NCBI RefSeq assembly: GCF_023055435.1
Contig: NW_025963846.1
Location: forward strand, 4,278,001-4,342,000
DNA: 64,000 nucleotides
Origin: Haliotis rufescens
Lineage: Eukaryota
Direction of reading: 5' to 3'
The notes under the pieces are model-generated. The model was not told where the DNA came from. It did no database searches and worked only from the letters and a program-made list of their open reading frames with translations. Both the position numbers and the translations under genes were made by a program. Every line of letters begins with the position of its first letter. The stretch's first letter is position 1. Shown in pieces: positions 3,601 through 63,992 of this stretch.

Positions 3601-6600
3601 TTCCGTCGACATAGTGAGGACAGAGATGCTGACTGCTAGATTCTTGTACTTCTCAGGTGGCATAAGAACTCTGCTACTTGTGGTGAAGTGGCTAAAGCTG
3701 CTAAAAACCCTTAGATCTCGCTAACTGGTCAAAACTCTTCCACTTATCATCATATAAATTCCTTGTGGATCTGCAAAGGGCTGAGGAGACTGCCTTAGCT
3801 GCTCTGAGTATCCTACCCTAATGAGGTTGATTGTAATATGTTCCATGAAGCTTGTAGAGATTGGGTCTGGTAATTGTGCAAACATTGATTTACAATAATC
3901 ATTTGGCACACATACAATGTTTTCAGCTAAACTTACTTGAAGATGTTGAAGATCATTGTTCCATGATCATACTTGTAGCCGGACTCCAGCATGGCACTGG
4001 CGATCAGAGTAGCATCAGCAAACACTGGGGGCCGCTTGCCAATATCATTAAATGACATTAATATGTTTTTAGGGTACTGCCTAGAGAAACAGAAGAAAGT
4101 AAACAAGGATTACAACATTAGCAAAAAAACAACTTGTGTCAGAGGGGTACACAAAATATGTGATCTAGACTACCAGTTGTTGGACTTTCATTTTTGTGGA
4201 AACCTGGGTGGCTGAGAGGGTTAGATCGCCGACTTTGTATGCTGGCGAATAGATGCCTCCTTCTGTGAGCTTAGGTTCGAAACCTGAATGGGAGTCAACA
4301 CCAAAAACACCAGAACATGTACTTTACTAACAAATGTGTTATCCAAAATATAACATTTGTTATATTTGAATTTTGACACATATTGTGTATTCATCATTAC
4401 AAAATTGTATTTCAATGCTAATTCATATCTATCTCAGCCATGTCAGGGGAGAGAACGAACGAACGAACGAACGAACGAACGAACGAACGAACAAATGTAC
4501 ATTTGGGCTGGGTTTGATGACACCTAATATCAGTTACCTCAAGGTGTGTGAGATTAATGTGGAAAGCCCAAAGAGTTGCAGCTAGTAGATGTTTATCTCT
4601 CTGGTGAAACCAAGAAGCAGAGATATTGTGCCAATGAACAAAGTATCAGTAGATCCTGAAAACCCCTTAGGGACACAACTCTGCACAGTAAATTGTGATG
4701 TCTTAGATAAGGTGAATATAATGACATATGGCAGTTTAACAAACCTTTGTAACATAGCTTTGGATTTATCTCCAATACAGACAATCTTTGTATCAATGCC
4801 TGGTTTCTGTGCCCCAAGTGTCGAACGGATGTGTTTGACAACATTGCTGTGGATACCACCACAGAGACCTCTGTCCGAGGTCACAGCTACGATCAGGTGG
4901 TTTGGCTGGTTTTCATCCTGCTCAACCTCAGCCTTCTCATAAAAAGCTGAAAACAGGAATTTAACACAATTTTGTGTCTGTTCACTGGTGTTTTTTCAAA
5001 AACCGAAACCCAAAATACAGATGGAAATAATCTTTAATTATGGCTTTTCCATCCAAACAAAAATTATACCTGGGTTTCAGACTGGTTCTTTTTCTTTGAC
5101 ACTGACTGACCATCATCCTAAACGTCTCAAAGAATTTACCCCAATTTGGTAATGATATAGAAGAATGTCCTCTCAAAAGCTGATGAAATCAGGAATATTT
5201 CAAGTTGCCATTTAACTCTTATCAAAATCATGGATTATACAAAATATTTGTATACATGTTGTAAAGTTCCTATGAAAATCAAGTAATCAAATAAAACATG
5301 TGGGGCTCAATGGTAAAGGCAATACAGATGTTATTTTTTTCAAATAATTATCCATAAAAGAAGACTAAATTATTATGGGCGCTACAATAACATATTTAGA
5401 CACTAGTCCTCACCATTTAACTATATTTTTTCATTGAATTTAATGTTGAAGATTCACTAACACATTCAATTTTAGAATATATCAGCTATTTTGTTTTAGA
5501 ACTAACACAATCTTTAAGAGGCTAACACTCCTTACCCTTAGCTCCTAATCCATAAGGTCTTGCTGGGCGAAGCTCTCGCTCAGCACGGGAGAACTTGGCA
5601 GCTGACACCATCTTCATGGACTTTGTGATCTTTTGAATGTTGGTGACGGACTTGAGTCGGATACGAACTGATTAGAAAACAACAGTATAAACTTTCAGAA
5701 GAAGCTCAATATTTAGTATACTACAAATAGGTTTCCTGTTTCTTACAAAATAATGAACATACTGATTCAGTTCACAGCTCATACTAAAACAGTTAGATTT
5801 TCACAAGCATCTGGACTAACTGACCTCTGGACTAACTGACCTCTGGCCATGTCTAACCTTTTACTTTAAGAAAATAAACATCAGAATATATAATAATTCT
5901 CATTCATTATAGGACACATTCAAACTATTAGAAGAATATTGAATATATTTGACATATAAATGTATACAACCATATGTTTTGTTTGTTTGTTTGTTGTTGC
6001 TTAACGCCGCACTCAGCAATATTCAAGCTATATGACGGCAGTCTGTAAATAATCCAGTCTGGACCAGACAATCCAGTGACTGACAGCATGAGCATCGATC
6101 CACGCATTTGGGATCGATGACATGTATCAACCAAGTCAGCGAGCCTGACTACCCGACCCCGTTAGTCGCCTTTTACGACAAGCATAGTCGCCTTTTACGG
6201 CAAGTATTGGTTGCTGAAGACCTATTCTACCCCTGGAATCTTAATGGGTGTACAACCATATGTAATATTTTGTGTTGCGAAGTAAGAATTGAAGACATAC
6301 GTACTATCCTTCAGTGTTGCCATGCCTCGCACTTGGGTGCTTGAGAAGAAAAACAACACATGGTAAATAACAAACAGCAAAATATGTTTTTTTGTCTATC
6401 AACAAGCCTGATGCCCACAACTACTGGGGTAATATTGAACAATACTTCTCTGTGAATATGGGTGACAATAACCCTCTACAGACCAGTGAAAATTTTTTTC
6501 CATAATTTCATAATTATGACCACAATTTACTCTGACAGCAGGAGATCATATGGCTGCATATCAGTTTCTTGACTAATTGAAGATATCAAGCATTTCCATC

Positions 6601-12668: not shown

Positions 12669-15600
12669 TCAGCCAACCAGTGTGCCCACCATAGCCGCCA
12701 TAGCCGCTTCCTTCTTGAGGTGCTGCAACATAGGTTAGCATAGGATATATAGATATACGATGACAGACTGAACTCCGAGCTCCAGATAAGCGTTTGGTGT
12801 TGTGGTGTTTTACCCATGCATTTTAAAATTATTGGGTACCAGTAATTCTATCTGGGTATTCAAATTTCTGTTACCCACTAGTTTTTACACATGTGGGTAT
12901 TTAAGTTAAATATTTAAAAACACTATTCATCTAGTCCCTGCAAACTGGTGTCGTGTGGGTTCGAGAGCTTTATAGGACTCAAAAATAATCACGATACTTC
13001 CACAAGAAAGTGTGATGACCAATGATCAAGATGTAACTGTCATCGTGGAGTTTGGCAAGGTTGACGGAATGCCAGTCTATAATTTCAAAATAAGTTGCTG
13101 ATTTGCTAATCGAATACGCAGGGTTACTTGACAATATTTTGATGATACGCACAAGTTTTATTTTTGTAGCGTATCTGTAATGTTCGTTGCTTATTTGATA
13201 CGCTTGGATCTTATTTTACTGCATATTTCTGCATTTCTGATGCGTATTTTACGCAGATACGCAGCTTATCTGGGGCTCCGTGAACTGCTCTCAACATTGT
13301 GTTACAGTTATATGTGGGAGGACGTGACGTTTATCGCTCTGGCGACTTCTACGGATATCAATAGTGCATAACCAGGGCGAATCTGGGATTCGAACCCATG
13401 ACAAGCGATTCCTGGCAGCTTAAGAACCCTTCAGAACGAATTGTGGCACATTAGACAGGGACCATGTTTAAGTAAGTTCACGCNNNNNNNNNNNNNNNNN
13501 NNNNNNNNNNNNNNNNNNNNNNNNNNNNNNNNNNNNNNNNNNNNNNNNNNNNNNNNNNNNNNNNNNNNNNNNNNNNNNNNNNNNNNNNNNNNNNNNNNNN
13601 NNNNNNNNNNNNNNNNNNNNNNNNNNNNNNNACATAAGTGTTTTAGTCAATTGAAGAATACATATTTCATACATTTATCATTATTAGTGTTGGTGTTACA
13701 TGTTACATATTCTATCAATATTACTGAAGGCATTGAGTGAATAAGAACGTAGCAACGGATGCGTTTGAACTCCAAACACAATACAAGATCACACAGAGAA
13801 GCGTTAATGTGAAACAAGACGATGTGGGTTTTGCTTACCTCCTCCACCAGATGGTTGAACTCTTTAGCCTGATCAGCATCGACATCTGAAATTGGAATAT
13901 GAGATATTGTTATCATCTATTGGTCGGTGTTGTCGATGGGATAAGCTGATAAATTTTTAAGCTCCAATGATCGATGCAACGTACACTTGATAACAATATG
14001 ATTGCATTAGGATTCCAATAATTTTAGACATGGACGTTTGTGTTAATAAATAAAAGCTACAAAACCCTTTCCATATTCATAAGAAATCTCTGTCAAAAGC
14101 ATTTTACGATTCCGACTATATCATGAGAATGTGTTTGTGAATCACTATCATATAGTGATGACACAAGGTGGTCGAGAAAAGGTGAGGGTATCCTGCCCTA
14201 CCGGTGGAACCCGTCACAAACAGTTTGAAGATAAGTATTAAGTGGAACAGGGTTATGTCCTGCCTCATCTGGCAAGAAGAACCTGCTGTAACTTTATCAA
14301 CTGGAGGGGGGAGAACTGGATTGACGGATATCAAATTGATATGTGTTTTTTAGTAAGGTTTCTTTGAGACAAAAAGCCAATCTTGAATCAATACCTATAG
14401 TTCATTACATTCTTCTCAAGACCTCTGCAATTCTATTGTATAACGTTTTATGGATTCATGGTGCTTCCCCAGGAGGTGTATCATATGAACGTGAGGGAGA
14501 CTTTGTATTGCTTCTATTGGTGTCATGTGGAGATGTGGAGTTGGAGATGGACCTCTATGGGATCTCTAAAGTAGAGGTGGCCTTTGGTGGTGGTGCTTGC
14601 AGTTGCTCTTATTGCTGCTTTTGTCGTAATAATTTTTGTTGTTGTTGTTAGAAATCCGTGAAGATCCGGGGTATTAGGTCTTCAGCAATCCATGCTTGAC
14701 GTAAAAGGCTGTTTGTCGTAAGAGGCAACTAACGGGATCGGTGGTCAGGCTCGCTGACATGCAAGTCATCGATCCAAGTTGGGTAGATCGATGCTCATGA
14801 TATCAACCACTGTATTGTCTGGTCCAGACTCGATTATTTACAGACCGCCTTCATATAGCTGGAATATTGCTGAGTGCGGCGTTAAACAACAAACAAACAA
14901 ACTGAGAGACATACAAGTAAGCCTATCCACTTACTGGACATTAACAGCAAGACTGCACTGTATCCCTTTGAGGCGATGTATTGGGTGAGTTGATCGTGCT
15001 GCGCGGCGAACATCATCTCGATAAATATCTGCTTGTCGATGTCATTGAGGTCTTCCAAAATCAAGTTGATGATGTGTAGATCCTTCATAAAGCTGAACAA
15101 GTCTTGCTGACTTTGACGTTTCTGTGTATAAAGGAGTATTGTCATTGCAATGTCATTATATATACTACTTAAAATAAGTTAAAGAACACCCGATTCTTTC
15201 ATATTACTATAGTTAACCTGTCATGGCATGGCAGTACATTTTCCAACCGAGTTTCAATAACATATCACCGCTATTAGCTGCAATATTACCGATGCGGCGT
15301 AATAGCAATATTAGCCCACTCATTTCATGGACGCCGGAATATTATTTCATAGAGGTTTCAGGGTGGTTACATAACAGATCGCCGTGACATACCGGTGGCT
15401 GAAATATTGCTGACTGGGGCGTCAACTACAAAACAGAAAGCAAACAAAACCCAATTTCTAAATTTTTAATCCGTCGCTGACTCAGAGATGTGTTGCACAA
15501 TTACAGTTGAACTTCTTACCTTAGATATGGCCCCAGGTGTCGAGAGAATGCCTGGTGTCGTGAGTATGTCAGATGTTGGGGACACAGCATCTACGAACCC

Positions 15601-18600
15601 AGGCCTCAAGTGCTGAAAAGATATACATGTATGATCTTGTTGGAGTGTAGCTATTGTCCCATGCCTCACCAGCCGTTAGGTATCGATATGTTTCTTTTTG
15701 TATCGAGATTATATACATTTTAGCTACAGCAACAAAACCAGGTACTTTTTGGTTTAAAATTTTGCGCCTGAATTTGTCAACAATGACAGTTTGGTATCAG
15801 GCAATGTCTGCAATAACAGTAAGCTATGTTGGTCTCACACTGGGGATTCCGGGCAAGAACAGGTCACAAATAACCTATGCTGGTCTCACACTGGGGATTC
15901 CTGGCAGGAACAGGTCCCCAGTAACCTATGCTGGTCTCACACTGGGGATTCCTGGCAAGAACAGGTCCCAAATAACCTATGCTGGTCTCACACTGGGGAT
16001 TCCGGGCACGAACAGGTCCCCAGTAACCTATGCTGGTCTCACACTGGGGATTCTTGGCAGGAACAGGTCCCAAATAACCTATGCTGGTCTCACACTGGGG
16101 ATTCCTGGCACGAACAGGTCCCCAGTAACCTATGCTGGTCTCACCCTAGGGATTCCGGGCAAGAACAGGTCCCAAATAACCTATGCTGGTCTCACACTGG
16201 GGATTCCGGGCAAGAACAGGTCCCCAGTAACCTATGCTGGTCTCACACTGGGGATTCCGGGCAAGAACAGGTCACAAATAACCTATGCTGGTCTCACACT
16301 GGGGATTCCTGGCACGAACAGGTCCCAAATAACCTATGCTGGTCTCACCCTGGGGATTCCTGGCACGAACAGGTCCCCAGTAACCTATGCTGGTCTCACC
16401 CTAGGGGTTCCGGGCAAGAACAGGTCACAAATAACCTATGCTGGTCTCACCCTAGGGATTCCTGGCAGGAACAGGTCCCCAAATTACCTATGCTGGTCTC
16501 ACGCTGGGCATTCCTGGCAAGAACAGGTCCCAAATAACCTATGCTGGTCTCACACTGGGGATTCCGGGCAAGAACAGGTCCCCAGTAACCTATGCTGGTC
16601 TCACCCTAGGGATTCCGGGCAAGAACAGGTCCCCAGTAACCTATGCTGGTCTCACACTGGGGATTCCGGGCAAGAACAGGTCCCAAATAACCTATGCTGG
16701 TCTCACCCTAGGGATTCCTGGCAAGAACAGGTCCCCAGTAACCAATGCTGGTCTCACCCTAGGGATTCCGGGCAAGAACAGGTGCTCAGTAACCTATGCT
16801 GCTTTTAAGAGACGACTGCATAGATCGGATGGTCATCCTCGATGACTTGAGTGGCTACCAGTATCAGTGTCTGGTCCTCACATGGTTATTTACAGGCCGC
16901 CATCACACCTACATCATTACAACCTTTGACCCTTGTTATTGTGTACCCTAATGCGGAGAATGGTTGTTGCTCGTACTATCAACCACCAGTCAGCATGGAT
17001 ACAGCTGTTTCCAGGAAAACTAATGTCGTTTTATTGAGCATGCAGCTGGAGAGGAATGTTATACCTCAAACTTTCTTGTTCAGCTGCTGTAATCTTTGTA
17101 TTGGGACTGACAATAGCCAGGTATTACTTGAATCAATACCGGACCGATTGTCATTTTTAATGTTCGAAAAAGACATAGTTTTTTTTAATTCTTATTTATA
17201 TTTTTCAGAAAGCCTATGTTATATATTCATCCAATAAGTACACCAGGCCATTTTGAATCTTAAAACAGAAAGAGGAGAAAGCAGAATATATAGGAACACG
17301 TTATAGTTATTTATTACTTGACGTGCTGATCAGATGGTATTAATATATTCAGGTTACTGTGGACAAATCCCACACCCGAATCCTCACAGGGATAAACGGT
17401 ACCAGTGGTTACCGACATGCATACCCGTGAAGATCCGGAGTAGAATAGGTCTTCAGCAACCCATGCTTGCCCTAAAAGGCGACTATGCTTGTCGTAAGAG
17501 GCGACTAACAGGATCGGGTGGTCAGGCTCGCTGACTTGGTTGATGCATGTCATCGATCCCAATTGAGGGGATCGATGCTCATGATATTAATAACTGGATT
17601 GTCTGGTCCAGACTTAGTTATTTACAGACCGCCGTCATATAGACGGAATATTGCTGAGTGCGGCGTTAAACAACAAACGAACGTGGCACTGTAAACTAAT
17701 CTGTGTCCCACCCTGGAAGTTACTTATGCAGTACTTACCGCGGACAAGTACCCCTCTAAGTGAGGAATGTCATCTTCATCCAGAACTGAAAGTAACAGTC
17801 TCCATATAGTCTGTTGGATTACCGCAATAGTAATACTAATAAACTAATGAAGCAAGATTTATATAAAGCCTGGTTTCGATCACAAGGTGCTCAACGGCGC
17901 TCACAATATAAACCAATGGGCAACAGAAAGTATACACTTGAAATTTGGATTTGATCAAGAAATTACAAACGTTATCAAAACGTTACTAGGCTGAAAACAG
18001 TCGCCGAAAACACTGCAAACTTCAGGTCAAAAACACAACTATGATACCCGATCAAATGCATCACCATCGAATAACCATGTCTTGTAAGTTTTTGTCCCTG
18101 AGTATTTTTAAACATGGCGTCATATCCCTACGTCATATCCCAAAGTGGTAAACGTCTGATTCCTTCATCACTTCGGGCTCTCCTCCCACATTAAGCTGAC
18201 AAGCCGCGATATAACTGGAATACTGTTAAAAGCGGCGTTAAACACAACTCACCCACTCACTAACTCGTAAACGTTCATCCGTCTGTAATTGACAACCGGT
18301 TACGTTTTCGTTTGAAACGTTGATACCACTCGGCTCACCCCTATTACGTCATCTCACAGCACATGGAGGAGTCCATTTTGGAACTAGTCTTAGTCACGTG
18401 ACTATCACACGACACGACAGTATCTGACGCAGACTCGCCTCTAACATAAAATGTTAAAAGTCTTCGTATGTAGCTTTTGATTATTATTAGACATACTTTA
18501 GGCTGTTTTCAAAACCGGCCGTCATGTTGTACGAACATTATTAGGCGGGATCCGTCAGTAATTGGAATACGGTGAAATTATCTGATATCACTACACTTGT

Positions 18601-18913
18601 GTTTTCCGTGGTATTAAGGTGGAGGAAAAGGCCGAATGAACCCGAGTGTACACTGATACCTACGGTCAAAGAGTTCGAGAAGCTTGACAAATCCGATTTG
18701 ATCTATTAGAGCAGTCAGTTCGGTCGTTCCTTGCACGGCCGCCGACACCAGGCTGTTGAAGAGAGTCTGTGAATCACCAGGCAACCTCTTGAAGTCGTCA
18801 CTATCCCGTATCTCGTTCAGATAGTCGACGAATAATGACGAGTTGGTGTAGTCGTGATGTTGGTCTGCCACGACGGCCACCACAAGGAGAGCAGTAACGA
18901 GTACAAACTTCAT
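12669..18913 (-). CDS. Secreted two-domain helical pro-protein, paralog A (225 aa, unknown family)
   Basis: Exons 18913-18664, 17785-17739, 15612-15520, 15121-14935, 13885-13839, 12722-12669; all GT-AG, 678 nt in frame. MKFVLVTALLVVAVVA|DQHHDY...DEDDIPHLEGYLSAHL-(S/T/P linker)-KKR|QSQQDLFSFMKDL...HLKKEAAMAAMVGTLVG*. AATAAA at 12629-12624. Homologous to B and C. An N gap lies in the last intron. Confidence 0.88.
13484..13631. other. Assembly gap (N run)
   Basis: Ns. Confidence 1.
13975..14220 (-). mobile_element. Penelope-like element 3' fragment
   Basis: Similar to 23560-23700 (caaaaccctttc.atattcat...aatcactatca.a.agtgatgacac). Confidence 0.55.
14655..14901 (+). mobile_element. Family B retroposon
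   Basis: ccgtgaagatccggggg...gtcgtaagaggc.actaacggg...gcggcgttaaacaacaaacaaac. Confidence 0.85.
15820..16800 (+). repeat. Minisatellite, 51-bp unit, ~19 copies, in an intron of gene A
   Basis: Unit ctggggattccgggcaagaacaggtccccagtaacctatgctggtctcaca; explains ORFs 15654-16808 and 15791-16537. Confidence 0.95.
17423..17682 (+). mobile_element. Family B retroposon, full length
   Basis: acccgtgaagatccggagtagaataggtcttcagcaacccatg...gcggcgttaaacaacaaac. Confidence 0.9.
18140..18265 (+). mobile_element. 5'-truncated SINE family D
   Basis: Matches the 3' half of 39101-39364. Confidence 0.75.
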
Positions 18914-22260: not shown

Positions 22261-22755
22261 GTAGGGTATTTTGGAATTCCAGAAAGCTAAGGGCATCACC
22301 TCACCAGCTGATGGAAGAGATTGTGCCTACTACGCATGAGGAAACGTTGGATGTTTCCAATGCCTTTGACTGTAGGTAATTCTCTGGCTGATAGGCGCGC
22401 TCGTCACGTCGCAGACCCTGGTCGAATCCCTACATGGGTTCAATAGGAAGCCCATCTTGGTCTCCCTGCCGAAATATATCACTGAGCTGCTGGTGTTTTC
22501 ACTTTATTGTCAGTCTATGTACGTACATGCGTACGTGCGTGTGTGCGTGCGTGCGTGTGTGTCCATATGTGACTGTGTGTGTCTGTATTCAGATTAATCG
22601 TAAAAGAAAGGGATCCTGTGTTCATGTCTGATAGAATGATAATCTGGCTAATTTTCAATTAGGCTGGGAAATCAATCTCTGAGTATTTGTTGAAGGAGAG
22701 GGGTATGAGTATTAGTTTAGGTGTATCACGTGCTTGTTAGTTAGTATAACCGTAC

Positions 22756-22802
22756 CCTATTGATCAGCTGATCAAAGCCGTGGGCTTCATCATGGTCAAT
22801 TT
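22756..22802 (-). pseudogene. Orphan 47-nt exon of the secreted-protein family (relic fifth paralog)
   Basis: cag|aa att gac cat gat gaa gcc cac ggc ttt gat cag ctg atc aat agg|gtac = IDHDEAHGFDQLINR, versus gene B exon QIDSDESHGFDLLIMR. Flanked by the same 38-bp minisatellite and by sequence (22600-22705) homologous to the gene B intron at 36770-36865. Confidence 0.8.
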
Positions 22803-22827
22803 CTGCCGCAAAGGTTAAAAAATGTCA

Positions 22828-23180
22828 ACTGCAGGAGGTTCTGGATAGCGCTATACTGAAGAGCAATTGCGGAAGGCTCTGTATAGCGCTATACTGAAGC
22901 ACAACGGGAGAATGTTCCAGATAGCGCTATACTGAAGAGCAACTGCATGAGTTAAGGATAGCGCTATACTGAAGAGCAACTGCATTAGTTCTGGATAGCG
23001 CTATACTGTAGAGCAACTGCGGAAGGTTCTGAATAGCGTTTTAATGAAGAGCAATTGCGGGAAGTTCTGGATAGCGCTATACTGAAAAGAAACGGGGGAA
23101 GGTACCGGATAGCGTTATACTGAAGAGCAACGGGAGGAGTTTCCGGATAGCGCAATATTGAAGAGCAACAGAGGAGGTTC
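22828..23180. repeat. 38-bp minisatellite (ggatagcgctatactgaagagcaact...)
   Basis: Tandem units; the same family occurs in the equivalent introns of genes B and C. Confidence 0.9.
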
Positions 23181-24627: not shown

Positions 24628-24818
24628 ACGCACTCAGCAAACTATTCCAGCTGTATGACGGTGGCCTGTAAATAATCGAGTCTGGGACAGACAGTCCAGT
24701 GATTGACACCATGAGCATCGATCTAGGCAATTGGGATACGATGACATGCATCAACCAAGTCAGCAAGCCTGACCACCCGATCCCATTAGTCGCCTCTTAC
24801 GACAAGCATAGTCTGAAG
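24628..24818 (-). mobile_element. Family B retroposon, partial
   Basis: Similarity to 17423-17682. Confidence 0.8.
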
Positions 24819-25449
24819 ATATCTCATACATGCGTGCTGAATTTCAACTTCATGTGGATGTTGGAGGGGTTTATAAAGAAACAGGTTGTCATATTTGTCA
24901 TTTGGTCAGTTTCAGTAATGTTTGTAAACTCTATATCAACGGATATCGGGTTATTATGACGTTATATATACACATACTATTTATACCATACAGGTTATCA
25001 TAATTATATTATTAATATGTGCTTACTAAATTTGTAGACAGACAGACACTCTTTCATATCTCTTTTTCCCAACATTTTGGGGACAAGCTAGAGTGAACAA
25101 GGCATCAATTAAGCATGATGCTTTACAACATGGCTTATTAACAGTACTGTGACAAGTCATTATCTCTGTCTTTCCTACCTGTAGCTTCTAACAGATCGTA
25201 AAATAGATTCATACATTATATTAAGTTACATTAAGTTACAAGATGACACGCAAGCGTTAATATGTCACAGTTTTGTACGCATGTGACTGGTTTGACAAAA
25301 GAAAGCATCTATGGGTACATATCAACCCCCTAAAATGACTGTGGAATATTTGCATTGTTCAACTTGTTTTGTTGTTATATTTCATTTGGAGTACACATAA
25401 AATCAGCATTCAGAATATAGTTCACATACAGTCTTAACTAAATATAAGA

Positions 25450-29350: not shown

Positions 29351-30239
29351 TATCTTGGTTGTGTTACTATGTATATATATAGTCTATAGTAGTTCCATAG
29401 GGTTGTGTAATCTTATCTGTGTTTTAAGGTTTTTATATTGTTGTACAGAAGGTGAGACTTCAATAAAATATATGTCTGTCTGTCTGTCTGTCTGTCTGAC
29501 AGGTCATGTACGCCGAGAAAAGAGGCGTCATTGGCTCAAATAAAATGCAGCAATATCTAGGTGTCTTTGAGTGTTTTTGTGACGGTAGCAAGTTGCAAAT
29601 ATATCATAAAAGTTCGAATATTAGCGTCCAATGGAGCTTACAGAGTAGACAAGGTAGAAGTTCCCATGTCGTTCGTGCGTTCGTGTGAGAGAGAAGTTTT
29701 ATGCCGCGGTTGGCACACTTCAAGCCATACCACTGCGGAGAACACCAATTATTCACACATTGTTTCCATATGGGGAATCGAACTCGGGTCTTAACAACTA
29801 GGCTGCCCCACGCACCTCGTGACGTAAGACCAGACAATGAGGTTTGGTGGTTGCAAAAGACGTGTTTTTCTGTAGTATATTCAACATTTTTACCCTACGT
29901 AAATATTGACTTAAACGTCTGTATTTATAGCATATTTAGAGACAATTTAACCACCGCGTTATTATTTATAGATTGTTTGACATGTTTTGCACATCACATA
30001 ATTATTGATTTAAACGTCGTTCTTAAAGTAGTTTATTATTTTACCTACGCCATTTGACCATCAATTTGTGAAATAGGTTCAAAATATTTTATCGCAAAAG
30101 AACACAAGTTTCCAAGACCTGGCTAACTGTGTGTCATAACACCGCGAAAGTCCAAATTAAAACCCACACTGTAGCTAAAATACAAGTCGCCTTGCTGTTG
30201 CTGTGGTACAGCAACGTATCGCAGTGAACCACCTTCATC

Positions 30240-30435
30240 ATCATTTGCAGAGGCTCAAACATAAAATCAAAATAAGGTTTGTGCTAGTTAAAACCGTGCC
30301 CTGTATCAAGACTACGAAGCAGCGTTGTGTGATCAAGTGAGCTTCTAGAAACCTATCCTGTTTGCTATCAGGGTTATAAGTAGGCCTGCAAGTCACTGAA
30401 GGTCCAGTCCTGTTCCCAGAAGTGATACACGACAG
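30240..30435 (+). promoter_or_regulatory. Putative promoter, TATA box (~30375) and short non-coding first exon of gene B
   Basis: Block conserved in inverted orientation upstream of gene C (50127-50300); TATAAG followed ~55 nt later by a cag|gtac donor; the coding exon starts right after an acceptor at 31181. Confidence 0.7.
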
Positions 30436-31182
30436 GTACCATCTTGATTTCTTACTTTCCTTACTCCTTGAAATATTACACTGTGACTTTGATTTTTAAT
30501 ATATTTTATGTCGAAACGTATTATGTTATTTACAGTTGCCCTCTAAAACGATATTAATTGTTTTCATTTTTGGGTTATTACAAATTACCAAATGTAATGT
30601 ATGTCTTGTGGATTTTCTGAACACAGTATATTTGATGGCGAAAAGAAGGTTTTTCACCTCATAATGAAAGCTGAGAAACAGAGACTTGATCTTTCATTTT
30701 GTGTAAAAGTGTATTCACACTGCTTGAAATAGACTTAACTAACAATGCGTGGATTACAATACGACATCGATTCCTGTAGTACCGTTATGGAAAGCTAGAT
30801 GATGTTTGAGGGAGCGGGAGCTATCAAGATACTTTTAAACATGTCGCTTTTCACTCGGATAATGTGATGTGTCATTTTGTCAGTTTTTGCGTGGAACACT
30901 TTCAAATTTTTATTTTGGGTCTTAAAACCACCGTTTACCGCCTGGACAGCCATTGCCAAGATAAAACATGTAATTTGTGACAACATTCGCCTCATTCGCG
31001 TCATGTTTGTCTTTGATGTCTATTTGAGTTAGGTATGTCCCAGCCGCATCAAGGCAAGGGACATGAATGATGGACCGTCTCTAAAGTGGGATTCGCTTGC
31101 CTGACGAACATAGCAGTCATTCCTTTCTAAAACCCAACACGGGCTTCACGTGCGATACAGCAAACTCTTTTTCTAATTCAGT

Positions 31183-34100
31183 ATGATGAAGTTCCTGATT
31201 GTTGCTTTGGTAGCAATGACTGCCGTCATTGCCGACCACCATCACGACTACAAAGACCCTTCTAAATTCGCCGACTGGCTGAAGGATGTGCAGAAGAGCC
31301 ACGAGTTCGCTCACATGACGCCAGAAGATAAGCTCCTCTACAGTCAACTCACCCAGGCTGCCGAACAGGGAAGTGCCGCCCTCACAACCTTCATCGATAG
31401 CCAGACCTTCGACAAGATTGTTGGCCTCATTGATCGTATGTTTATATGTTTGACCATGTGTATGCTCATGGACACTAATTACACACAACCATGGCTCAGA
31501 TGGACACTTATTACACACAACCATGGCTCAGATGGACACTTATTACACACAACCATGGCTCAGATCGACACTAATTACACACTACCCTGGCTCAGATGGA
31601 CACTTATTACACACAACCATGGCTCAGATGGACACTTATTACACGAAACCATGGCTCAGATGGACACTAATTACACACTACCCTGGCTCAGATGGACACT
31701 AATTACACACAACCATGGCTCAGATGGACACTTATTACACACAACCATGGCTCAGATATGGACACTTATTTCACACAACCATGGCTCAGATGGACACTAA
31801 TTACACACTACCCTGGCTCAGATGGACACTAATTACACACAACCATGGCTCAGAGGGACACTTATTACACACAACCATGGCTCAGATGGACACTGATTAC
31901 ACACTACCCTGGCTCAGATGGACACTAATTACACACAACCATGGCTCAGATGGACACTTATTACACACAACCATGGCTCAGATGGACACTTATTACACAC
32001 TACCCCGGCTCAGATGGACACTTAATACACACAACCATGGCTCAGATGGACACTAATTACACACAACCATGTCTCAGATATGGACACTAATTACACACAA
32101 CCATGGCTCAGATATGGACACTAATTACACACAACCATGGCTCAGATATGGACACTTATTTCACACAACCATGGCTCAGATATGGACACTAATAACACAC
32201 TACAATGGCTCAGATGGACACTAATTACACACAACCATGGCTCAGATGGACACTTATTACACACAACCATGGCTCAGATGGACACTTATTACACACAACC
32301 ATTGCTCAGATATGGGCACTTATTACACACAACCATGGCTCAGATGGACACTTATTACACGAAACCATGGCTCAGATGGACACTTAATAGACACAAACAT
32401 GGCTCAGATGGACACTAATTACACACAACCATGGCTCAGATGGACACTTATTACACACAACCATGGCTCAGATGGACACTGATTACACACAACCATGGCT
32501 CTGATATGGACACTTATTACACACAACCATGGCTCAGATGGACACTGATTACACACAACCATGGCTCAGATGGACACTTATTACACACAACCATGGCTCA
32601 GATGGACACTAATTACACACAACCATGGCTCAGATGGACACTTATTACACACAACCATGGCTCAGATGGACACTAATTACACACAACCATGGCTCAGATG
32701 GACACTTATTACACACAACCATGGCTCAGATGGACACTTATTACACACAACCATGGCTCAGATGGACACTTATTACACACAACCATGGCTCAGATGGACA
32801 CTTATTACACACAACCATGGCTCAGATGGACACTAATTACACACAACCATGGCTCAGATGGACACTTATTACACACAACCATGGCTCAGATGGACACTAA
32901 TTACACACAACCATGGCTCAGATGGACACTTATTACACACAACCATGGCTCAGATGGACACTGATTACACACAACCATGGCTCTGATATGGACACTTATT
33001 ACACACAACCATGGCTCAGATGGACACTGATTACACACAACCATGGCTCAGATATGGACACTAATTACACACAACCATGGCTCAGATGGACACTAATTAC
33101 ACACAACCATGGCTCAGATGGACACTTATTACACACAACCATGGCTCAGATGGACACTAATTACACACAACCATGGCTCAGATGGACACTTATTACACAC
33201 AACCATGGCTCAGATGGACACTGATTACACACAACCATGGCTCTGATATGGACACTTATTACACACAACCATGGCTCAGATGGACACTGATTACACACAA
33301 CCATGGCTCAGATATGGACACTAATTACACACAACCATGGCTCAGATGGACACTGATTACACACAACCATGGCTCAGATCGACACTAATTACACACAACC
33401 TTGTCTCAGATGGACACTGATTACACACAACCTTGTCTCAGATGGACAATAATTACACACAACCATGTCTCTGATCGACACTAATTACACACAACCTTGT
33501 CTCAGATGGACACTAATTACACACAACCATGGCTCTGATCGACACTAATTACACACAACCTTGTATCAGATGGACACTGATTACACACAACAATGGCTCA
33601 GATATGGACACTAATTACACACAACCTTGTCTCAGATGGACACTGATTACACACAACAATGGCTCAGATATGGACACTAATTACACACAACCATGTCTCT
33701 GATCGACACTAATTACACACAACCTTGTCTCAGATGGACACTAATTACACACAACCATGTCTCTGATCGACACTAATTACACACAACCTTGGCTCAGATG
33801 GACACTAATTACACACAACCATGGCTCTGATCGACACTAATTACACACAACCTTGTATCAGATGGACACTAATTTCAACGCCGATATAAGACCGAACGTG
33901 CGTTCGGGGCAATAGATTATTGTCCTCCTTTAAAACATTTTACCCATATTGAATATTTATATATGCACAGCAATGAATGTTATTATCAGTTCGGATGACC
34001 GACAATAGGCATTTGACAGGTAAACGTTTGTTAGACAAATAATCCCCCCAAACATATCAAACTCCAGATAATAAGATCAAACTCCAGAGAATAAGTATCG

Positions 34101-35517
34101 ATTCCTTACTTACAAACAATACAGAATCTGACAACCTATAACCCTATATCCCTCTCCACCATCCTCATGACGTTGAAATGTAGCACGCATGTATGATGTA
34201 TCTTCAGATTTCGACGATGACGACATTCCCCACTTTGAAGCGTACCTTGCCTTTGTAAGTACCGTGGTGTTTAGTCTGCTACCCATCATTAAGATCGTAA
34301 GAAATTATATATTGATATGCTGAACAATTGCAAAATTTGTACTTTTATCTTCAACGATCATGACAAAAGTTACATTATTCTGTTTCAGCACCTGCACGGC
34401 ACAATAACCGCAGCTGGCGTGAGTATATGTGCACCAACCTAAGTTTTTGTGGTTATAATTAGTCATTAAGGAAGACAAATAATACAGTATGTTATACCAA
34501 AGAATAATATCTAACCGTTATAACTGTGGTATATTTTAGTTATGATATAGTTTATATTTATATACTTTTATTGCATATTCTTTTGTTTTTTTTGGTACAA
34601 TCGAAATAGTAGAATTGTTAAAATAGCGTCCTACTGCTGGATGTTGATCATGATCATGTTCGTACCAACTATATTATAGTGTGTATTAAGGGGAGACGGG
34701 TGGGCATGTCCGTTGTGTAAAGACTGTTCAAATTGTGTACTCATCTGCCAGTTTATTTGGTTTTACAGACATTTGTTTTAACTTTGGATTCTAATATGAA
34801 GCTGTCCTACCAAGATATAACTAAACTACTGTTCAAACCAAACTTAACAACACACTTGGGGCACCCCACCCCATCATATACGTGCTGGGGCTGCCAATTG
34901 GCCCGGGTCTAGGCCGTCTATAAACTTAACTTATTCGATCAATTATTCTTCACGTAAAACCACGATGTTTCCTATCTTTGATCAGAAGCGACAGAGTGGC
35001 TCAGACCTGTTCAGTTTCCTGAGGGACCTTCACCTTATGCACAAGATCGAGGACGATCTCTCCCATTCTGACATGCGAGTGTTCTTGGAGATCATGTTCG
35101 CCGCTGAACACGACACTCTCACCCAATACATTGACAAGAAGGGCTACGGCCCCGTCCTGGACCTCATGTCACGTAGGTATTTGATGTACAACTGCTGTAT
35201 ACAGTGAGTAGGGATATCCAATATCTACCCAATCTCGTCATGGTCTTAGAGGACCGCCGCCGTGGTCTAGTGGTAGAGCGTCCGCCCGGAGAGCGGAAGG
35301 TCCGGGGTTCGATCCCCGGCCGCGTCATACCAAAAGACGTTAAAGGATGATACTTGTTGTTGCAATGTCTGGCGCTCGACATTAAGGGGCTAAACAAGGA
35401 CTGGTTGACTCGGAGTCAGTATACAGTGTCTGAGTGGGGTATTCATGTTAAACTGCGGCATGGTATCTCAGTGGGCTAGTACTATACATCGGCATCAGTC
35501 CGGACTAGTACAAGCAG

Positions 35518-35556
<39 letters not shown>

Positions 35557-37208
35557 GCTATATAGCTATATATTGCTATGCAATAATCTTCGACGCGACG
35601 TTAAACCCAATTTCACCTCACCTCATGGTCTTATAGAATGAGATTTCGAGAATTGCCACCTCTGCAACTAAGTAGGATCTGTATTGAAGATGAGAACAAG
35701 GGGACATCTCCCTACTCTTCTTATGTCACATTGACACCAGTAGAACACTATTTATTCGGCTTGCTCCATTTACTCTTTCTAAACTCTGTCCCGAACTCCC
35801 CCATTCACACTTCAGTATAACGCTACCCGGAAACTCTTGCAGTTGCTCTTCAATATAGCTATACAAAACCTCCTTCCGTTGCTCATCAATATAACGCTAC
35901 CGGGAACCTTTTCCAGTTGCTCTTTCAGTATAACGCAGTCCGACACCTCCATCTGTTGCTCTTCAGTATAAGGCTGTGTGGCACCTCTTCCAATTGCTCC
36001 TCAGTATTCCGTTGCCCGTAACGTCCTTCCGCTGCTCCTCATTATAACGCTGCCGGAATCTCCTGAATCTCCTGAATTTGGCTTTGAAGGGGACTCACGT
36101 CATTGTTCATATATATTAAACTTTTGTTGCAGAAATTGATAGCGATGAATCCCATGGCTTTGATCTGCTGATCATGAGGGTAAGGACACACATACATATT
36201 GTTTAAACACATTTATTGGATATTATATTAAAAAGGATTATATAGGACTTCCTCTATTTTACAACAGCACAGCAGGTTTTGGCCGTTTCACTATACATAC
36301 CACATGACGATGGAATAAAACAAACTTTTTTTGATATTACACAAAGTCATTATTAGTACTATTTACCTAGGTTCATTTATAAATCAGGATGGCACGTTCC
36401 CCACTTTAGACAGGACAATATAGCAGGACAGGAATTTCGTCTTCAACACTTTTTGTACAGTCAAACATGTTCTTTCTTCCATTGGGAGGCTGCTGTATCG
36501 TCCTGTCTCCAAGTGTATTGGAGCAGTGCCACACCCGAATTAGCCAGTGGGCTTCTGTGGGGTCGGGGGTTAAGACGTTTCAGGCAAACATCTTCTAGGT
36601 TTTTTTTAATGAATTTTGAAATTCCAATTTCTTTTCCTGTTTATGGTCTTGTTTATGTTTATATTTATTTCCACGAAGAAGTAGTTTGTGTGAGAACTAA
36701 CAAGCACACGATACAGTTATCCTAACATTCTTACATCAACAGCTAGTTCAACGGTCACATCTTCCCAGATGCCCCTCTCCTTCAACAAATACTGTTAACT
36801 CCGCGATGGCGTTTCCTGTCAAAATAAAAATCAGCCAGATTATTTTTCTTGCAGACAGGAACACATTGCTTTCATGTTACGTGAAACTTGAATAATCTGA
36901 ATACGATATCACACATTGTGCAAAGTAACCATAGACCAGGCACAAAGGTAAACCCATCACGAACGTACTTAAAGAAAGCTTTTGCAGTTCATTTTGTGTA
37001 TTTCATTCGACTCCAAGTAGGGAGAAACGGGAACATATGAATCAGAAGAGAAAGAAGATTGGTGTTGATGGAATTGCTAATTTGCCAGAGTCTGATTCCC
37101 TAATAATCGTTTATCTTTGCCGTATTTCAGCATCTGGAACATGAGGCTGCGATGTCACAAATGAAATCTACTGTCGGCACCAACGTTGTCAGCACAGTCA
37201 TCGTCTGA
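31183..37208 (+). CDS. Secreted two-domain helical pro-protein, paralog B (213 aa, unknown family)
   Basis: Exons 31183-31435, 34208-34254, 34389-34418, 34986-35172, 36133-36179, 37131-37208; GT-AG, 642 nt in frame. MMKFLIVALVAMTAVIA|DHHHDYKDPSKF...HFDDDDIPHFEAYLAFHLHGTITAAGKR|QSGSDLFSFLRDL...QIDSDESHGFDLLIMRHLEHEAAMSQMKSTVGTNVVSTVIV*. Confidence 0.9.
31467..33874. repeat. 32-bp minisatellite (atggacactaattacacacaaccatggctcag), ~75 copies, in the first coding intron of gene B
   Basis: Direct tandem repetition with 34-bp variants; explains the many repetitive ORFs at 31715-33388. Confidence 0.97.
35252..35622 (+). mobile_element. tRNA-derived SINE family C with internal (CA)n, specific to the gene B intron
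   Basis: A box gtggtctagtggtagagcg, B box ggttcgatcccc; TSD-like tcatggtctta on both sides; absent from the paralogous intron of C. Confidence 0.9.
35808..36060. repeat. Diverged 38-bp minisatellite in a gene B intron
   Basis: Reverse complement of the units at 22828 and 46735. Confidence 0.8.
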
Positions 37209-43205: not shown

Positions 43206-43548
43206 GACAGATTCAGGATCTCCGACACAAGTGACATCTGATGAACACAATGACCAGAGTAAAACCAATCTTTATACACATTTTATTCACAACTGCCAAT
43301 GGTATATCTGCAAAGAAAAGATTTATATCGAATTAAACATTTGAATAAATATTCATTAGTGGCGTTTTATACTTTTAAATTCCATAACACCATCATACAA
43401 GCACAATATAATTTCTTCCACATTCTGATTATAATTTCATTTCCCGTATTTATCTAACATCTAATCTAATCTAATGACATAATACCATTATAATGGATGT
43501 AGGCACGGCTGTAGGTAAAATTATTTTTAGTATTCTGACTGAGCATTA

Positions 43549-44171: not shown

Positions 44172-44444
44172 TATAATTGCAGATTCATGATGATTGGCTA
44201 GTTCGTCCAAAGTGTTCTCATCGTCACGATATGGCTTAAAAAATTGCCGATGTGACGTTAAATATTAAATATCAACTCACTCACTCCAAATTGTTCTATG
44301 GTCTTCATTGTTAGTGAGGAGACCCCTAGCAAAGTGACGTCACATGAATGCAAGCAACCGATGATGATGTCATATTGATCATGACATCACAACCGATTTT
44401 ATGCGCCGTCGTTCTAATAATAAACCAACTACGTTGTTCAGCGC

Positions 44445-44615: not shown

Positions 44616-44758
44616 ACTACGCTTGAGATGAGGAAAGCCATTATTCACATGTTTTCATTAAAAAAAAGACTATGGGTAGTGCAGGAAGTAACCCACTTGC
44701 CAGGAGTTATTTACTGTGCCCCGTGAATTAATACTGAAAAGGCTCCTTACATACTTAA

Positions 44759-45794: not shown

Positions 45795-48700
45795 TCAAAC
45801 CACAACTGGAGCAGCAGTGCTGGCCATTGGGGCAGCCGTGCTGGCCATAACTGGAGCAGGTGTGCTGACCATTGGAGCAACCGTGCTGTCCATAACTGGA
45901 GCAGGTGTGCTGACAACGATGGCGCCGACAGTAGTTTTCATTTGTGACATCGCAGCCTCATGTTCCAGATGCTGAAATATGGGAAAGGATACAAAGGATT
46001 TAGGGGCTGGCAGTCCCACCCAAATCCACTTTCTTTCTATTCTAATTCATATGTTTCTATTCTTCCAAAGCGTTAGAGTCATATGGAATACACACAAAAT
46101 GATCTGTAAAAGCTTTCTTTAAGCAGGCTCGTCTAAGGTTCCTTTGCACAATGATTCTGTATTCAAATTAAGACAATAAAGATAAGAAACTGGAATTTCA
46201 AATTTCATAAAAAAACTGTTTTAATATATTTTGCATTGTGTCAGAGGTGAAGGTTTTACAGTTTAGCTGTGTGTATAAACGAGTGGAATATGATTATTAC
46301 ACGCGATGAGGACAGTAATGTCACATTGTATTCTAATTATAGAACTGTATTTGGCGCCCACGATTATGACACACGCCCTATCCCCCGATCCCACAGAGGC
46401 GCACTGGCAAATTCACTGCTCCAATGTGGCACTGCTGCAATACGCTTACAGACAAGACGTTAAAGCAACCTCCCAATTTAAGAACATGTTTGAACTGTAC
46501 AGAGACTCAGTATCCTATAATTCCGTATCGAGTTACCAGCTTGTTTCACATATTCTGTTTACCATTTTTATTGTTATATTTTGGATGTGACAACCTGTCT
46601 GTGTGTCCTTACCCTCATGAGCAGCTTATCAAAGTTGCGAGTTTGATCTTTATCAATTTCTGAAACAAAAAAATTGAAAATAATTAATCAATTGACAAAG
46701 ACATCATTCCTCTTCAAAGTCACATTCAGGAGGTTCCGGGTAGCGTTACACTGAAGAGCAATTAGTAAAAGGTTTGGGATAGCGCTCTACTAAAGAGCAA
46801 TGGGAAGAGGTTTGGGATAGCGCTATACTAAAGAGCAATGGGAAGAGGTTTGGGATAGCGCTATACAAAAGAGCAATGGGAAGAGGTTTGGGGAAGCGTT
46901 ACACTTAAGAGCAATGGGAAGAGGTTTGGGATAGCGCTATACTAAAGAGCAATGGGTAGAGGTTTGGGATAGTGGTATACTAAAGAGCAATGGGAAGAGG
47001 TTTGGGATAGCGCTATACTAAAGAGCAATGGGAAGAGGTTTGGGATAGCGCTATACTAAGAGCAATGGGAAGAGGTTTGAGATAGCGGTATACTAAAGAG
47101 CAATGGGAAGAGGTTGGTATAGCGCTATACTAAAGAGCAATGGCAAGAGGTCCCGGATACTGAAGAGTTTGTTTGCTCTTTAACGCCACACTCGGCAGTA
47201 TTCCAGCTATATGACTGCACTTTACACTGACGAGTAAAGGGTGGAAGCCGTGTCATTGTGTATAGCGCTATACTGAAGAGTAACTGCAATAGTTTCCGGG
47301 TACCGTTATACTGAAGGATAGAGGAAGGAAGTTCCGGACAGAGTAAAGAGAGCAAGCCGAATCATAGTGTTCTACTGGTGTCAATGTGACATAACAAGAG
47401 TAGGGAGATGCGCGTTAGTTCTCTTCTTAAACACAGAGGCTTTTAATTTGATGAGGTGGCAATTCTAAATCTCATTATAAGACCATGGCTAGATTAGTAG
47501 ATATTGGGTATTCCAAACAGCTGTATACATTAGTTGTGCATCATATACCTACGTGACATGAGGTCCAGGACGGGGCCGTAGCCCTTATTGTCAATGTATT
47601 GGGTGAGCGTGTCGTGTTCAGCGGCGTACATGATCTCCAGGAAGACCCGCATATCTGAATGGGAGAGATGTTCCTCCACCTTGTGCATAAGGTGAAGATC
47701 CCTAAGGAAGCTGAACAGGTCTGAGCCACTCTGTCGCTTCTGATTAACGAAAGAAAACATCTATACTTTTTTGTCCTTTTTTAAATCTAAAACAATATAT
47801 GAGTGAATTAGTTCAGTTTAAAGGCAAACTAGCCTCAAGATAATTGCCAGGCCAAGCATTTATGTGACTGCTTCCCCCCTCCCCTCCGCGCCCCCAGTGA
47901 GTGAGTGAGGTTGGTTTGAACAGTATTTCAGTAATGTCTCAGTTATGTTACATATACTTCTTTGGTATGAAAAACTTATTTTTGTCATTTAATGACTTAT
48001 TATAACCACTAAAACTTAGGTTTGTGCCCATATACTCACGACAGGTGCGGTTGTTGTTGTGCCCTGCAGGTGCTGAAAGAGATTAGTATTGACAATATCA
48101 TTGCAGATATAAATACAAATTATTTCAATGTCTTACGATCTTAATGATAGGCAGCAAAACAAGCACAACGGTACTTACAGCGGCTAGGTAACCTTCAAAG
48201 TGGGGAATGTCGTCCTTGTCCAGATCTGAGGACATATCAAACATACGGGCTACATTTCAACTTCAGCAAGATATATATCAGCGGATATCGAGCTATTATA
48301 ACATTTCGAAGACATATTTTATGGATGATATATAGGTTGTTATGAAAAGTGTCAAAGAACAACGATGGAGGTAGCTGAACACAGGTAAGATGGTCATTAT
48401 ACAAATGTGAGACACTGCCGAAAACCATAGACTATTTTAAGAACGCGTGTTCACTATAGTTTTTGGCAAGCGAAATGTGTCGGCAGATAATGAAGGCTAA
48501 TTATTCTCTGGTATTGACGTTAGATATTTTGGGAACAATTTTTCGGAATGATTTAATCAGTTTTCTAGGACTGCCGATTGTTCCTACATGAAAGAGCATA
48601 TACATGGACATAAATGTAGACATACGATCAATGAGGCCAATAATCTTGTCGAAGGTCTGGCTATTGATGAAGGTTGTGAGGGCGGCACTTCCCTGTTCGG

Positions 48701-48878
48701 CAGCCTGGATGAGTTGACTGTAGAGAAGCTGATTTTCTGGCGTCATGTGAGCGAACTCGTGGCTCTTCTGCACATCCTTCAGCCAGCCGGCGAATTTAGA
48801 AGGGTCTTTGTAGTCGTGGTGGTCGTTGGCAATGACCGCAGTCATTGCTACCAAAGTAACAATCAGGAGATTCATCAT
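45795..48878 (-). CDS. Secreted two-domain helical pro-protein, paralog C (247 aa, with mucin-like C-terminal repeats)
   Basis: Exons 48878-48626, 48225-48179, 48072-48040, 47739-47553, 46659-46613, 45971-45795; GT-AG, 744 nt in frame; close paralog of B; tail STPAPVMDSTVAPMVSTPAPVMASTAAPMASTAAPVVV*. Confidence 0.9.
46735..47340. repeat. 38-bp minisatellite (gggatagcgctatactaaagagcaatgggaagaggttt), homogenised, in a gene C intron
   Basis: Direct tandem repetition. Confidence 0.93.
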
Positions 48879-62886: not shown

Positions 62887-63992
62887 ATGAGGCTGAGCGT
62901 GATAGTCCTGAGCGTCCTCTGTGTTGCCTGCGCTGCTACCGTGCTGGAGCAGAAGCTTCATGAGTTTGTAAGTGGGCATGTGTTGGATCAACTGCCGCAG
63001 AATGAGAGGATCCTGCTGGCGCAGCTGGTGGCTACAGCTGAAAGAAATGAGCTGAAGGAGTTCCTGGACTTAGTGGGGCCATTACCTGTCTTCCAGCTCA
63101 TCTCAGGTAGGGCCATTACCAGTCTCGCAGCTCATCTTAGACTGTCATAACCAGTCTCGCAGCTCATCTTAGACTGTCATTACCAACTTACAGCTCATCT
63201 CAGTTAGTGTCATTACCAACTTACAGCTCATCTCAGGTAGGGTCATTACCAGTCTCGCAGCTCATCTTAGGCTGTCATTACCAACTTACAGCTCATCTCA
63301 GTTAGGGTCATTACCAGTCTCGCAGCTCATCTTAGACTGTCATTACCAACTTACAGCTCATCTCAGTTAGGGTCATTACCAGTCTCGCAGCTCATCTTAG
63401 ACTGTCATTACCAACTTACAGCTCATCTCAGTTAGGGTCATTACCAACTTACAGCTCATCTCAGTTAGGGTCATTACCAACTTACAACTCATCTGAGTTA
63501 GAGTCATTACCAACTTACACATCATCTCAGTTAGGGCCATTACCAACTTACAACTCATTTCAGTTAGAGTCATTACCAACTTACAACTCATTTCAGTTAG
63601 AGTCATTACCAACTTACAACTCATCTGAGTTAGGGTCATTACCAACTTACAACTCATCTGAGTTAGGGTCATTACCAACTTACAACTCATCTGAGTTAGA
63701 GTCATTACCAACTTACAACTCATCTGAGTTAGGGTCATTACCAACTTACAGCTCATCTCAGTTAGGGTCATTACCAACTTACAACTCATCTCAGTTACCA
63801 TTATCTTGTGGTTCATCTCAAGGTAGGGCCTCTTATTTATGGAGAACGTGTAATATTACCAACTTACAAGGCCTAGTTTATAGTTAAGATATGATCGTTA
63901 TATTTCTACACGATGACTGCATTATTCCATGTTTCGTCTTCACAGATCTGCCAGCAAAGCAAATTCACAACCTGACTCGCTATCTCAGCCAG
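62887..63992 (+). CDS. Secreted helical-domain protein, divergent paralog D (3'-partial)
   Basis: Exons 62887-63106 and 63946-63992 (47 nt), GT-AG, same phases as A-C. MRLSVIVLSVLCVACA|ATVLEQKLHEF...LPQNERILLAQLVATAERNELKEFLDLVGPLPVFQLISDLPAKQIHNLTRYLSQ. Confidence 0.82.
63077..63800 (+). repeat. 33-bp minisatellite starting at the gene D exon/intron junction
   Basis: Unit gtcattaccaacttacagctcatctcagttagg, ~22 copies. Confidence 0.93.

What the first reader, a model, noticed from the sequence alone, without database searches (positions are those of the whole stretch)
13839..18913. Exon-module duplication: each domain is a large phase-1 exon, a 47-nt exon and a 'His-Leu' exon
Seen: eight exons of exactly 47 nt (17739, 13839, 22756, 34208, 36133, 48179, 46613, 63946). 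In the four genes each is entered in phase 1 and left in phase 0, and in A-C each is followed by an exon starting CAC/CAT-Leu. This shows that the two halves arose by internal duplication and that D is homologous despite low identity. A phase-0-bounded module can be concatenated freely, so relatives with one or many domains are predicted.
Basis: seen in the sequence. Interest (0 to 1): 0.7.

Follow-up and report, generated by a model that had tools for sequence, protein, structure and literature searches.

The report
Mollusc polyproteins from a three-exon cassette
Four neighbouring abalone genes belong to an unnamed snail-and-bivalve family of likely secreted proteins built from one to seven copies of a small three-exon unit, and the copies are likely cut apart after synthesis into separate small proteins whose job is untested.

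Summary
The exon pattern is real. All eight 47-nt exons have AG..GT ends, phase 1 in and 0 out; seven lie in genes A-D, the eighth (22756) is a relic of a lost copy. Transcript contigs confirm the coding junctions of A and B. A equals RefSeq Haliotis rufescens LOC124144258. Halves are only 18-24% identical, but a profile of six single-unit paralogues scores each 28-37 bits (shuffles at most 6), and both halves model with the same helix series. D has one unit. A profile search gave 85 hits (83 kept); relatives have 1, 2, 3, 4 or 7 units, and all 22 species-named clusters of 30 looked up are gastropod or bivalve and uncharacterised. No Pfam family or solved fold matches. 'His-Leu' is not invariant, and only internal units are phase-0 bounded on both sides. 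Function is untested; a secreted carrier is my best guess (0.3).

The parts
18664..18913 (-). Gene A coding exon 1: signal peptide (by eye, about 16 aa) plus large exon of unit 1, ends in phase 1
   Evidence: junction 17785/18664 in 3 of 4 runs and 5'-UTR intron 18919/20067 in 2 of 4
17739..17785 (-). Gene A 47-nt exon, unit 1 (phase 1 to 0)
15520..15612 (-). Gene A His-Leu exon: end of last helix plus Thr/Pro-rich linker
   Evidence: pLDDT under 50 at residues 104-134
14935..15121 (-). Gene A large exon of unit 2; opens with Lys-Arg-Gln (15113-15121), the likely convertase site
13839..13885 (-). Gene A 47-nt exon, unit 2
12669..12722 (-). Gene A last coding exon (His-Leu to stop)
   Evidence: whole protein identical to P0001
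22756..22802 (-). Orphan 47-nt exon, relic of a further B/C-like copy (38 of 47 nt equal to B's fifth exon) inside homologous block 22617-23168; second relic 24812-24895
31183..31435 (+). Gene B exon 1: signal peptide plus large exon of unit 1
34208..34254 (+). Gene B 47-nt exon, unit 1
34389..34418 (+). Gene B His-Leu linker exon
34986..35172 (+). Gene B large exon of unit 2, opens Lys-Arg-Gln
36133..36179 (+). Gene B 47-nt exon, unit 2
37131..37208 (+). Gene B last coding exon; a 3'-UTR intron follows (37253/37639)
   Evidence: UTR joint in 2 of 4 runs
48626..48878 (-). Gene C exon 1 (inverted paralogue of B, 86% aa identity per unit)
48179..48225 (-). Gene C 47-nt exon, unit 1
48040..48072 (-). 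Gene C His-Leu linker exon
47553..47739 (-). Gene C large exon of unit 2, opens Lys-Arg-Gln
46613..46659 (-). Gene C 47-nt exon, unit 2
45795..45971 (-). Gene C last coding exon with a repeated Thr/Ala/Pro-rich tail
62887..63106 (+). Gene D exon 1: signal peptide plus large exon; single-unit gene
   Evidence: 117-aa single-unit orthologues in H. rubra and H. asinina
63946..63992 (+). Gene D 47-nt exon; third exon lies beyond the window at G000:C68:4343880 (31 aa, stop)

Best explanation
Genes A-D encode likely secreted precursors of a mollusc protein family whose unit, a predicted all-helical domain of about 77 residues, is encoded by a large phase-1 exon, a 47-nt exon and a short third exon, and in two-unit precursors a Lys-Arg site is likely cut so that each unit is released as its own small protein. 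Shown: exon structure, splicing of A and B, homology of all units, 1-7 units per precursor, KR/RR in most linkers. Inferred: signal peptides (by eye); cleavage by a furin/prohormone-convertase-type enzyme (about 0.7), leaving Gln at the start of unit 2; origin of the two-unit gene by duplicating the cassette between the 5'-UTR and 3'-UTR introns of a single-unit gene, with loss of the first stop and of the second signal peptide, after which internal units are phase-0 symmetric and can multiply (about 0.6). Function, committed guess (about 0.3): bulk-secreted extracellular carriers of small hydrophobic ligands or metals in gut or mucus, working like nematode polyprotein allergen units without being related to them.
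For: Splicing. Homology: HMM from six single-unit genes on two other contigs scores A1, A2, B1, B2, C1, C2, D at 28.1-36.7 bits, 0 of 200 shuffles each reach it, best shuffle 5.9. Same intron in all 6 of those 6 genes and a 47-nt exon in all 6. In 36 of 36 database proteins whose unit stops at the end of the large exon the next residue is R/S/G/C, the read-through of a phase-1 GT donor, against 14 of 94 in units that continue. AlphaFold: single unit pLDDT 87, pTM 0.70; both units of A give the same helix series with a disordered linker. KR/RR in 36 of 46 linkers against 8 in 8,414 dipeptides in unit cores; the Arg is among the columns at least 90% conserved in 20 multi-unit proteins. YAG 1-7 nt before the ATG in 9 of 10 genes, confirmed as an acceptor for A; 3'-UTR intron in B. 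Later expansions of unit 2 within one gene (Plakobranchus units 3-7, Elysia units 2-3). Two Littorina members are also filed under Digyalum oweni, a parasite of the Littorina gut epithelium whose samples held host contaminants (PMC6733595, passages): a hint of gut expression.
Against: No cleavage, tissue or ligand data. 10 of 46 linkers lack KR/RR (5 Mytilus with a single Arg; 5 with almost no linker, probably incomplete gene models), and the 46 include near-identical sequences. A1 and A2 give no BLAST alignment and the three-sequence profile comparison is weak (probability 7.5, E 0.005). The two-unit model's pTM of 0.65 would also fit units that pack together. No residue set points to a ligand; the best-kept positions are hydrophobic or Gly. 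The age of the first fusion is unresolved: the quick tree groups A-C units with other gastropods' units 1 and 2 (SH-aLRT 92 and 90, unstarred), the careful tree does not, and an abalone-only origin is not rejected (p-AU 0.31).
Confidence: 0.65

Rival explanations
1. The precursor is not cut: the two units stay joined and act as one two-domain protein, and KR is a leftover of the junction.
For: pTM 0.65 for the two-unit model; Mytilus linkers have one Arg only; PMC3079579 (passages) notes that some NPA units are not separated.
Against: KR/RR kept in 36 of 46 linkers that otherwise vary widely in length and sequence, across gastropods and bivalves, and avoided inside units; single-unit genes show the unit stands alone (7 of 10 genes found in this genome).
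Confidence: 0.22
2. The units are released as in the best explanation but act as signals (peptide hormones or water-borne pheromones) on receptors, not as carriers.
For: Signal peptide, dibasic sites and Gln after KR in A-C (Gln follows 6 of 39 KR/RR sites counted) are prohormone hallmarks (established knowledge); fast divergence between units.
Against: Units are large, folded, Cys-free and acidic (pI 4.2-5.3), with no amidation signal; I saw no such family in the passages read from a mollusc prohormone survey (PMC6425005; its sequence lists were not searched).
Confidence: 0.25
3. The released units are mucus or gut defence proteins (membrane-active or metal-withholding), a disulfide-free functional analogue of saposin-like proteins.
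For: Small amphipathic helical units, His 6% of residues; gene turnover with an inverted pair and a relic copy; a multi-copy His-rich peptide precursor lies about 4 kb beyond D's last exon.
Against: Units are acidic rather than cationic; no Cys; adjacency is not evidence of shared function.
Confidence: 0.15
4. The equal exon sizes and phases are coincidence between unrelated halves.
For: 18% identity and no BLAST hit between A1 and A2.
Against: Profile scores, ranks 1-8 of 64, same helix series, same intron in 13 of 13 units in this genome.
Confidence: 0.02

Closest known systems
Nematode polyprotein allergens (ABA-1/NPA), tandemly repetitive polyproteins
   Same: Tandem small all-helical units cut at regularly spaced protease sites; units can be very divergent; some carry His-rich extensions (PMC3079579, abstract start and passages).
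   Different: NPA units have seven helices, a conserved Trp and a conserved disulfide, very short linkers, few or no introns in the array, and occur only in nematodes. Here the unit is about 77 aa, Cys-free, intron-defined, with long linkers, mostly 1-3 copies.
Prosaposin / saposin-like proteins (recalled)
   Same: About 80-aa helical units, single or in a tandem precursor that is processed.
   Different: Saposins are defined by six Cys; A-C have none and the family 0.4%.
Insect Bla g 1 / major-allergen / NSP repeat family (recalled)
   Same: Gut-secreted helical repeat proteins with single- and multi-unit genes made by internal duplication of an exon set.
   Different: No Pfam or PDB sequence match; different phylum; shorter unit.
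Exon shuffling of symmetric (class 0-0) modules (recalled)
   Same: Internal units are flanked by phase-0 introns and have multiplied up to seven.
   Different: The ancestral single unit is not a symmetric module: it is fused to its signal peptide and ends in a stop.

Membership tests
Tandemly repetitive polyprotein (as a kind) | Several homologous units in one ORF behind one signal peptide | tested here: met
   33 of 95 proteins have 2-7 units
Tandemly repetitive polyprotein (as a kind) | Protease sites between units | tested here: met
   KR/RR in 36 of 46 linkers, sequence level only
Tandemly repetitive polyprotein (as a kind) | Units actually released in vivo | not testable with these tools
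   needs proteomics
Nematode polyprotein allergen | Conserved Trp and disulfide Cys pair | tested here: not met
   no Cys in A-C; family W 0.3%, C 0.4%; feature from PMC3079579
Nematode polyprotein allergen | ABA-1 fold | tested here: inconclusive
   not listed
Nematode polyprotein allergen | Fatty acid / retinol binding | not testable with these tools
   needs binding assay
Saposin-like proteins | Six conserved Cys (recalled) | tested here: not met
Saposin-like proteins | Saposin fold | tested here: inconclusive
   not listed
Insect allergen repeat (Bla g 1/NSP) | Match to the family profile or solved members | tested here: not met
   not among Pfam families listed at E<=0.1 for 20 and 56 members (25 of 26 families shown; 54); no PDB sequence hit at E<=0.05
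MgtE N-terminal domain (PF03448) | Pfam gathering score | tested here: inconclusive
   weak hits in 7 of 20 and 2 of 56 members, best E 4e-4; the one score shown is 18.6 bits against a cut-off of 25.9
Symmetric class 0-0 exon module | Phase-0 introns on both sides of the unit | tested here: not met
   true only between units; unit 1 shares the signal-peptide exon, last unit ends in a stop
Neuropeptide / hormone precursor | Signal peptide and dibasic sites | tested here: met
   (signal peptide by eye)
Neuropeptide / hormone precursor | Neuroendocrine expression and a receptor | not testable with these tools
   runs carry no tissue labels

The most novel reading that the evidence does not exclude
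An undescribed, mollusc-wide class of secreted polyproteins with a helical fold not yet in the PDB, in which an intron-defined cassette was repeatedly concatenated behind convertase sites to co-release fixed ratios of divergent ligand-carrier or signalling units: a molluscan counterpart of nematode polyprotein allergens that arose independently.
Probability: 0.3. Interest if true: 0.7.

Novelty: new variant of a known kind. Interest (0 to 1): 0.48.

Why it matters
Internal duplication with conserved intron phases is textbook. What adds value is the family behind it: conserved across gastropods and bivalves, transcribed and spliced, with no Pfam family, no named member among those looked up and no clear structural match. 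The KR sites make a sharp, cheap prediction (10-15 kDa mature units starting right after KR), and single-, two-, three- and seven-unit genes side by side show how a polyprotein can grow from an ordinary three-exon gene. It concerns farmed species (abalone, oysters, mussels, scallops).

Tried and rejected
Pfam on 7 exons and on 20 and 56 family members: nothing at a curated cut-off was shown. PDB by sequence: best E 0.06-1.2. Foldseek: no match at E<=0.001 for either model. VIA-align against 48,161 chains: best Z 7.0 (rmsd 3.9, 85 aligned) and 7.2 (rmsd 3.2, 86 aligned), none at 8; generic helical matches such as influenza M1 (Z 6.9), which show neither kinship nor a new fold. Atlas: no usable feature hit, best TM 0.35; the single-unit query could not be read. 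Complex prediction of unit 1 with unit 2 of A: no answer, score 0.01, alignments not used. Shell-matrix idea: motifs not found in family context in 12 of 27 supplements of PMC6003135. Motif searches in supplements of PMC8158898 (3 files) and PMC8614816 (1 file): none. Paper searches for 12 accessions and 6 motifs: 0 papers; topic searches showed no description of the family; most subscription journals and unsearched supplements could still hold one. A recalled likeness to Aplysia seductin could not be tested (listing only). Earlier findings: none. P0080 and P0081 were dropped from the 85 hits as short, repeated partial matches in long unrelated proteins. Weak genome hits on C113, C68:33.58 Mb, C605, C179 gave no unit in the HMM scan; those on C1, C101, C113:5.46 Mb and C445 were not scanned.

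Full report
Observation. The eight coordinates mark 47-nt stretches between YAG and GT. Gene models read from the window give three six-exon genes, A (minus, 12669-18913), B (plus, 31183-37208) and C (minus, 45795-48878), and the first two exons of D (plus, from 62887). Each unit is a large exon left in phase 1, a 47-nt exon left in phase 0 and a short third exon. Of 64 open YAG-47-GTR candidates in the window, the eight named rank first to eighth under a family profile built without A-D and their orthologues. The exon at 22756 belongs to no gene: it sits in a block homologous, inverted, to B's introns 4-5, and no large or last exon was found within 19.5-30.5 kb. B and C are an inverted pair, 70-93% alike over exons and introns, with dN/dS 0.75 for unit 1 and 0.31 for unit 2.

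Splicing. Contigs of public runs (RNA by guess, but joined at GT..AG) confirm all five coding junctions of A in 2 of 4 runs, four in a third, none in the fourth, plus a 5'-UTR intron. B's junctions appear in 3 or 4 of 4 runs from three studies, one 764-nt contig holds exon 1, exon 4 and exon 6 sequence, and a 3'-UTR intron follows the stop. A is letter for letter RefSeq H. rufescens LOC124144258 (P0001), with a 94% orthologue in H. cracherodii. C rests on open frames and splice sites; D also on annotated orthologues.

Homology of the halves. Units 1 and 2 are 18-24% identical within a gene, BLAST finds no alignment for A1 against A2 and a small profile comparison is weak. Genome searches found six further genes on two other contigs (three more queries added none). 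All six are single-unit genes with a signal peptide, the same phase-1 donor and a 47-nt exon. An HMM of these six scores the seven window units at 28.1-36.7 bits; none of 200 shuffles each exceeds 5.9. AlphaFold models a single unit confidently (pLDDT 87, pTM 0.70) and gives both units of A the same helix series around a disordered linker. D is single-unit: its third exon is 1.9 kb past the window and its orthologues are 117 aa.

The family. A 12-sequence profile against 1.84 billion representatives gave 85 hits at E<=0.001; I dropped two as unrelated. Among 95 proteins (hits, cluster members, B and C) 62 have one unit, many of them fragments, 25 two, 6 three, 1 four and 1 seven. Of 30 clusters looked up, 22 carry a species name, all gastropods or bivalves and all uncharacterised or hypothetical. 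The phase-1 intron is family-wide: in 36 of 36 proteins whose unit stops at the end of the large exon, the next residue is R, S, G or C, as an unspliced N|GT codon gives, against 14 of 94 otherwise. Five distinct unit-2 fragments also show an in-frame Gln (CAG acceptor) just before their basic site. The species of these fragments were not looked up.

Unit 2 of A, B and C opens with Lys-Arg-Gln. KR or RR lies in 36 of 46 linkers but in only 8 of 8,414 dipeptides in unit cores. Of the ten exceptions five are Mytilus with one Arg and five have almost no linker. This is the layout of a convertase-processed precursor (established knowledge). Predicted products are 10.5-14.7 kDa, pI 4.2-5.3, without Cys. 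Cleavage itself is untested.

How the cassette grew. The unit is not a symmetric module in single-unit genes: it shares an exon with the signal peptide and ends in a stop. Nine of ten genes have YAG 1-7 nt before the ATG and B has an intron just after its stop, so I infer a duplication between the two UTR introns, followed by loss of one stop and one signal peptide; internal units are then phase-0 bounded and can multiply, as in Plakobranchus and Elysia. The first fusion predates the split of A from B/C: A1+A2 as a clade is rejected (p-AU 0.0016). Whether it is abalone-only or older is open (p-AU 0.31, 39 selected rows, 77 columns, groups named); the quick 74-row tree favours a shared gastropod origin without strong support.

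Function. No Pfam family, PDB sequence or fold explains the unit. The only tissue hint is that two Littorina members are also filed under a parasite of the snail's gut epithelium, whose samples held host contaminants (PMC6733595 passages). I commit to secreted carrier proteins (about 0.3), by analogy with nematode polyprotein allergens (PMC3079579 passages), whose defining Trp and Cys are absent here; signalling (0.25) and defence (0.15) are close rivals, and an uncut two-domain protein remains possible (0.22).

Print record. Searches for 12 accessions and 6 motifs found no paper; topic searches and three papers' supplements, one searched in part, showed no description. Subscription journals and unseen supplements may hold one.

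Verdict. Observation confirmed, interpretation partly supported. The duplication is ordinary in kind; the uncharacterised, mollusc-wide, likely polyprotein family behind it earns moderate interest (0.48).

Noticed in passing
G000:C68:4348353-4350785 minus (L004 8353 to L005 785), about 4 kb beyond gene D's last exon: Single ORF of about 800 aa: likely signal peptide and tandem 46-aa repeats with 29 KR sites; each repeat holds a His-rich amphipathic peptide ending Gly-Lys-Arg. Looks like a multi-copy antimicrobial or neuropeptide precursor.
   Followed up: no
G000:C334:64081587-64083076 (L087): In one single-unit paralogue the 47-nt exon and its donor are expanded into a 45-nt tandem array of about 30 copies, each still reading AG..47..GT in frame: a possible bank of alternative exons or a minisatellite born from an exon.
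   Followed up: no
window 1741-6330, minus: Exons that read by eye like the mitochondrial ATP synthase gamma subunit (name recalled, not searched); a synteny anchor for the cluster.
   Followed up: no
window 29500-37700 and 43200-50300: B and C form an inverted duplication that includes introns and flanks; relics of a third copy lie at 22617-23168 and 24812-24895.
   Followed up: yes
window 34254/34986: Run X1 holds a second form with a different 30-nt His-Leu exon between the same neighbours: another allele or paralogue of B.
   Followed up: no
window 15770-16800, 31470-33870, 57170-58270, 63120-63790: Long intronic or intergenic minisatellites, several starting right after a splice donor of these genes.
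   Followed up: no
G000:C334:64070524 and 64080272; P0060, P0068, P0070, P0076, P0082, P0084: Subfamilies of single-unit proteins carry a Cys at the turn after the long helix and a second Cys outside the core, a possible added disulfide.
   Followed up: no
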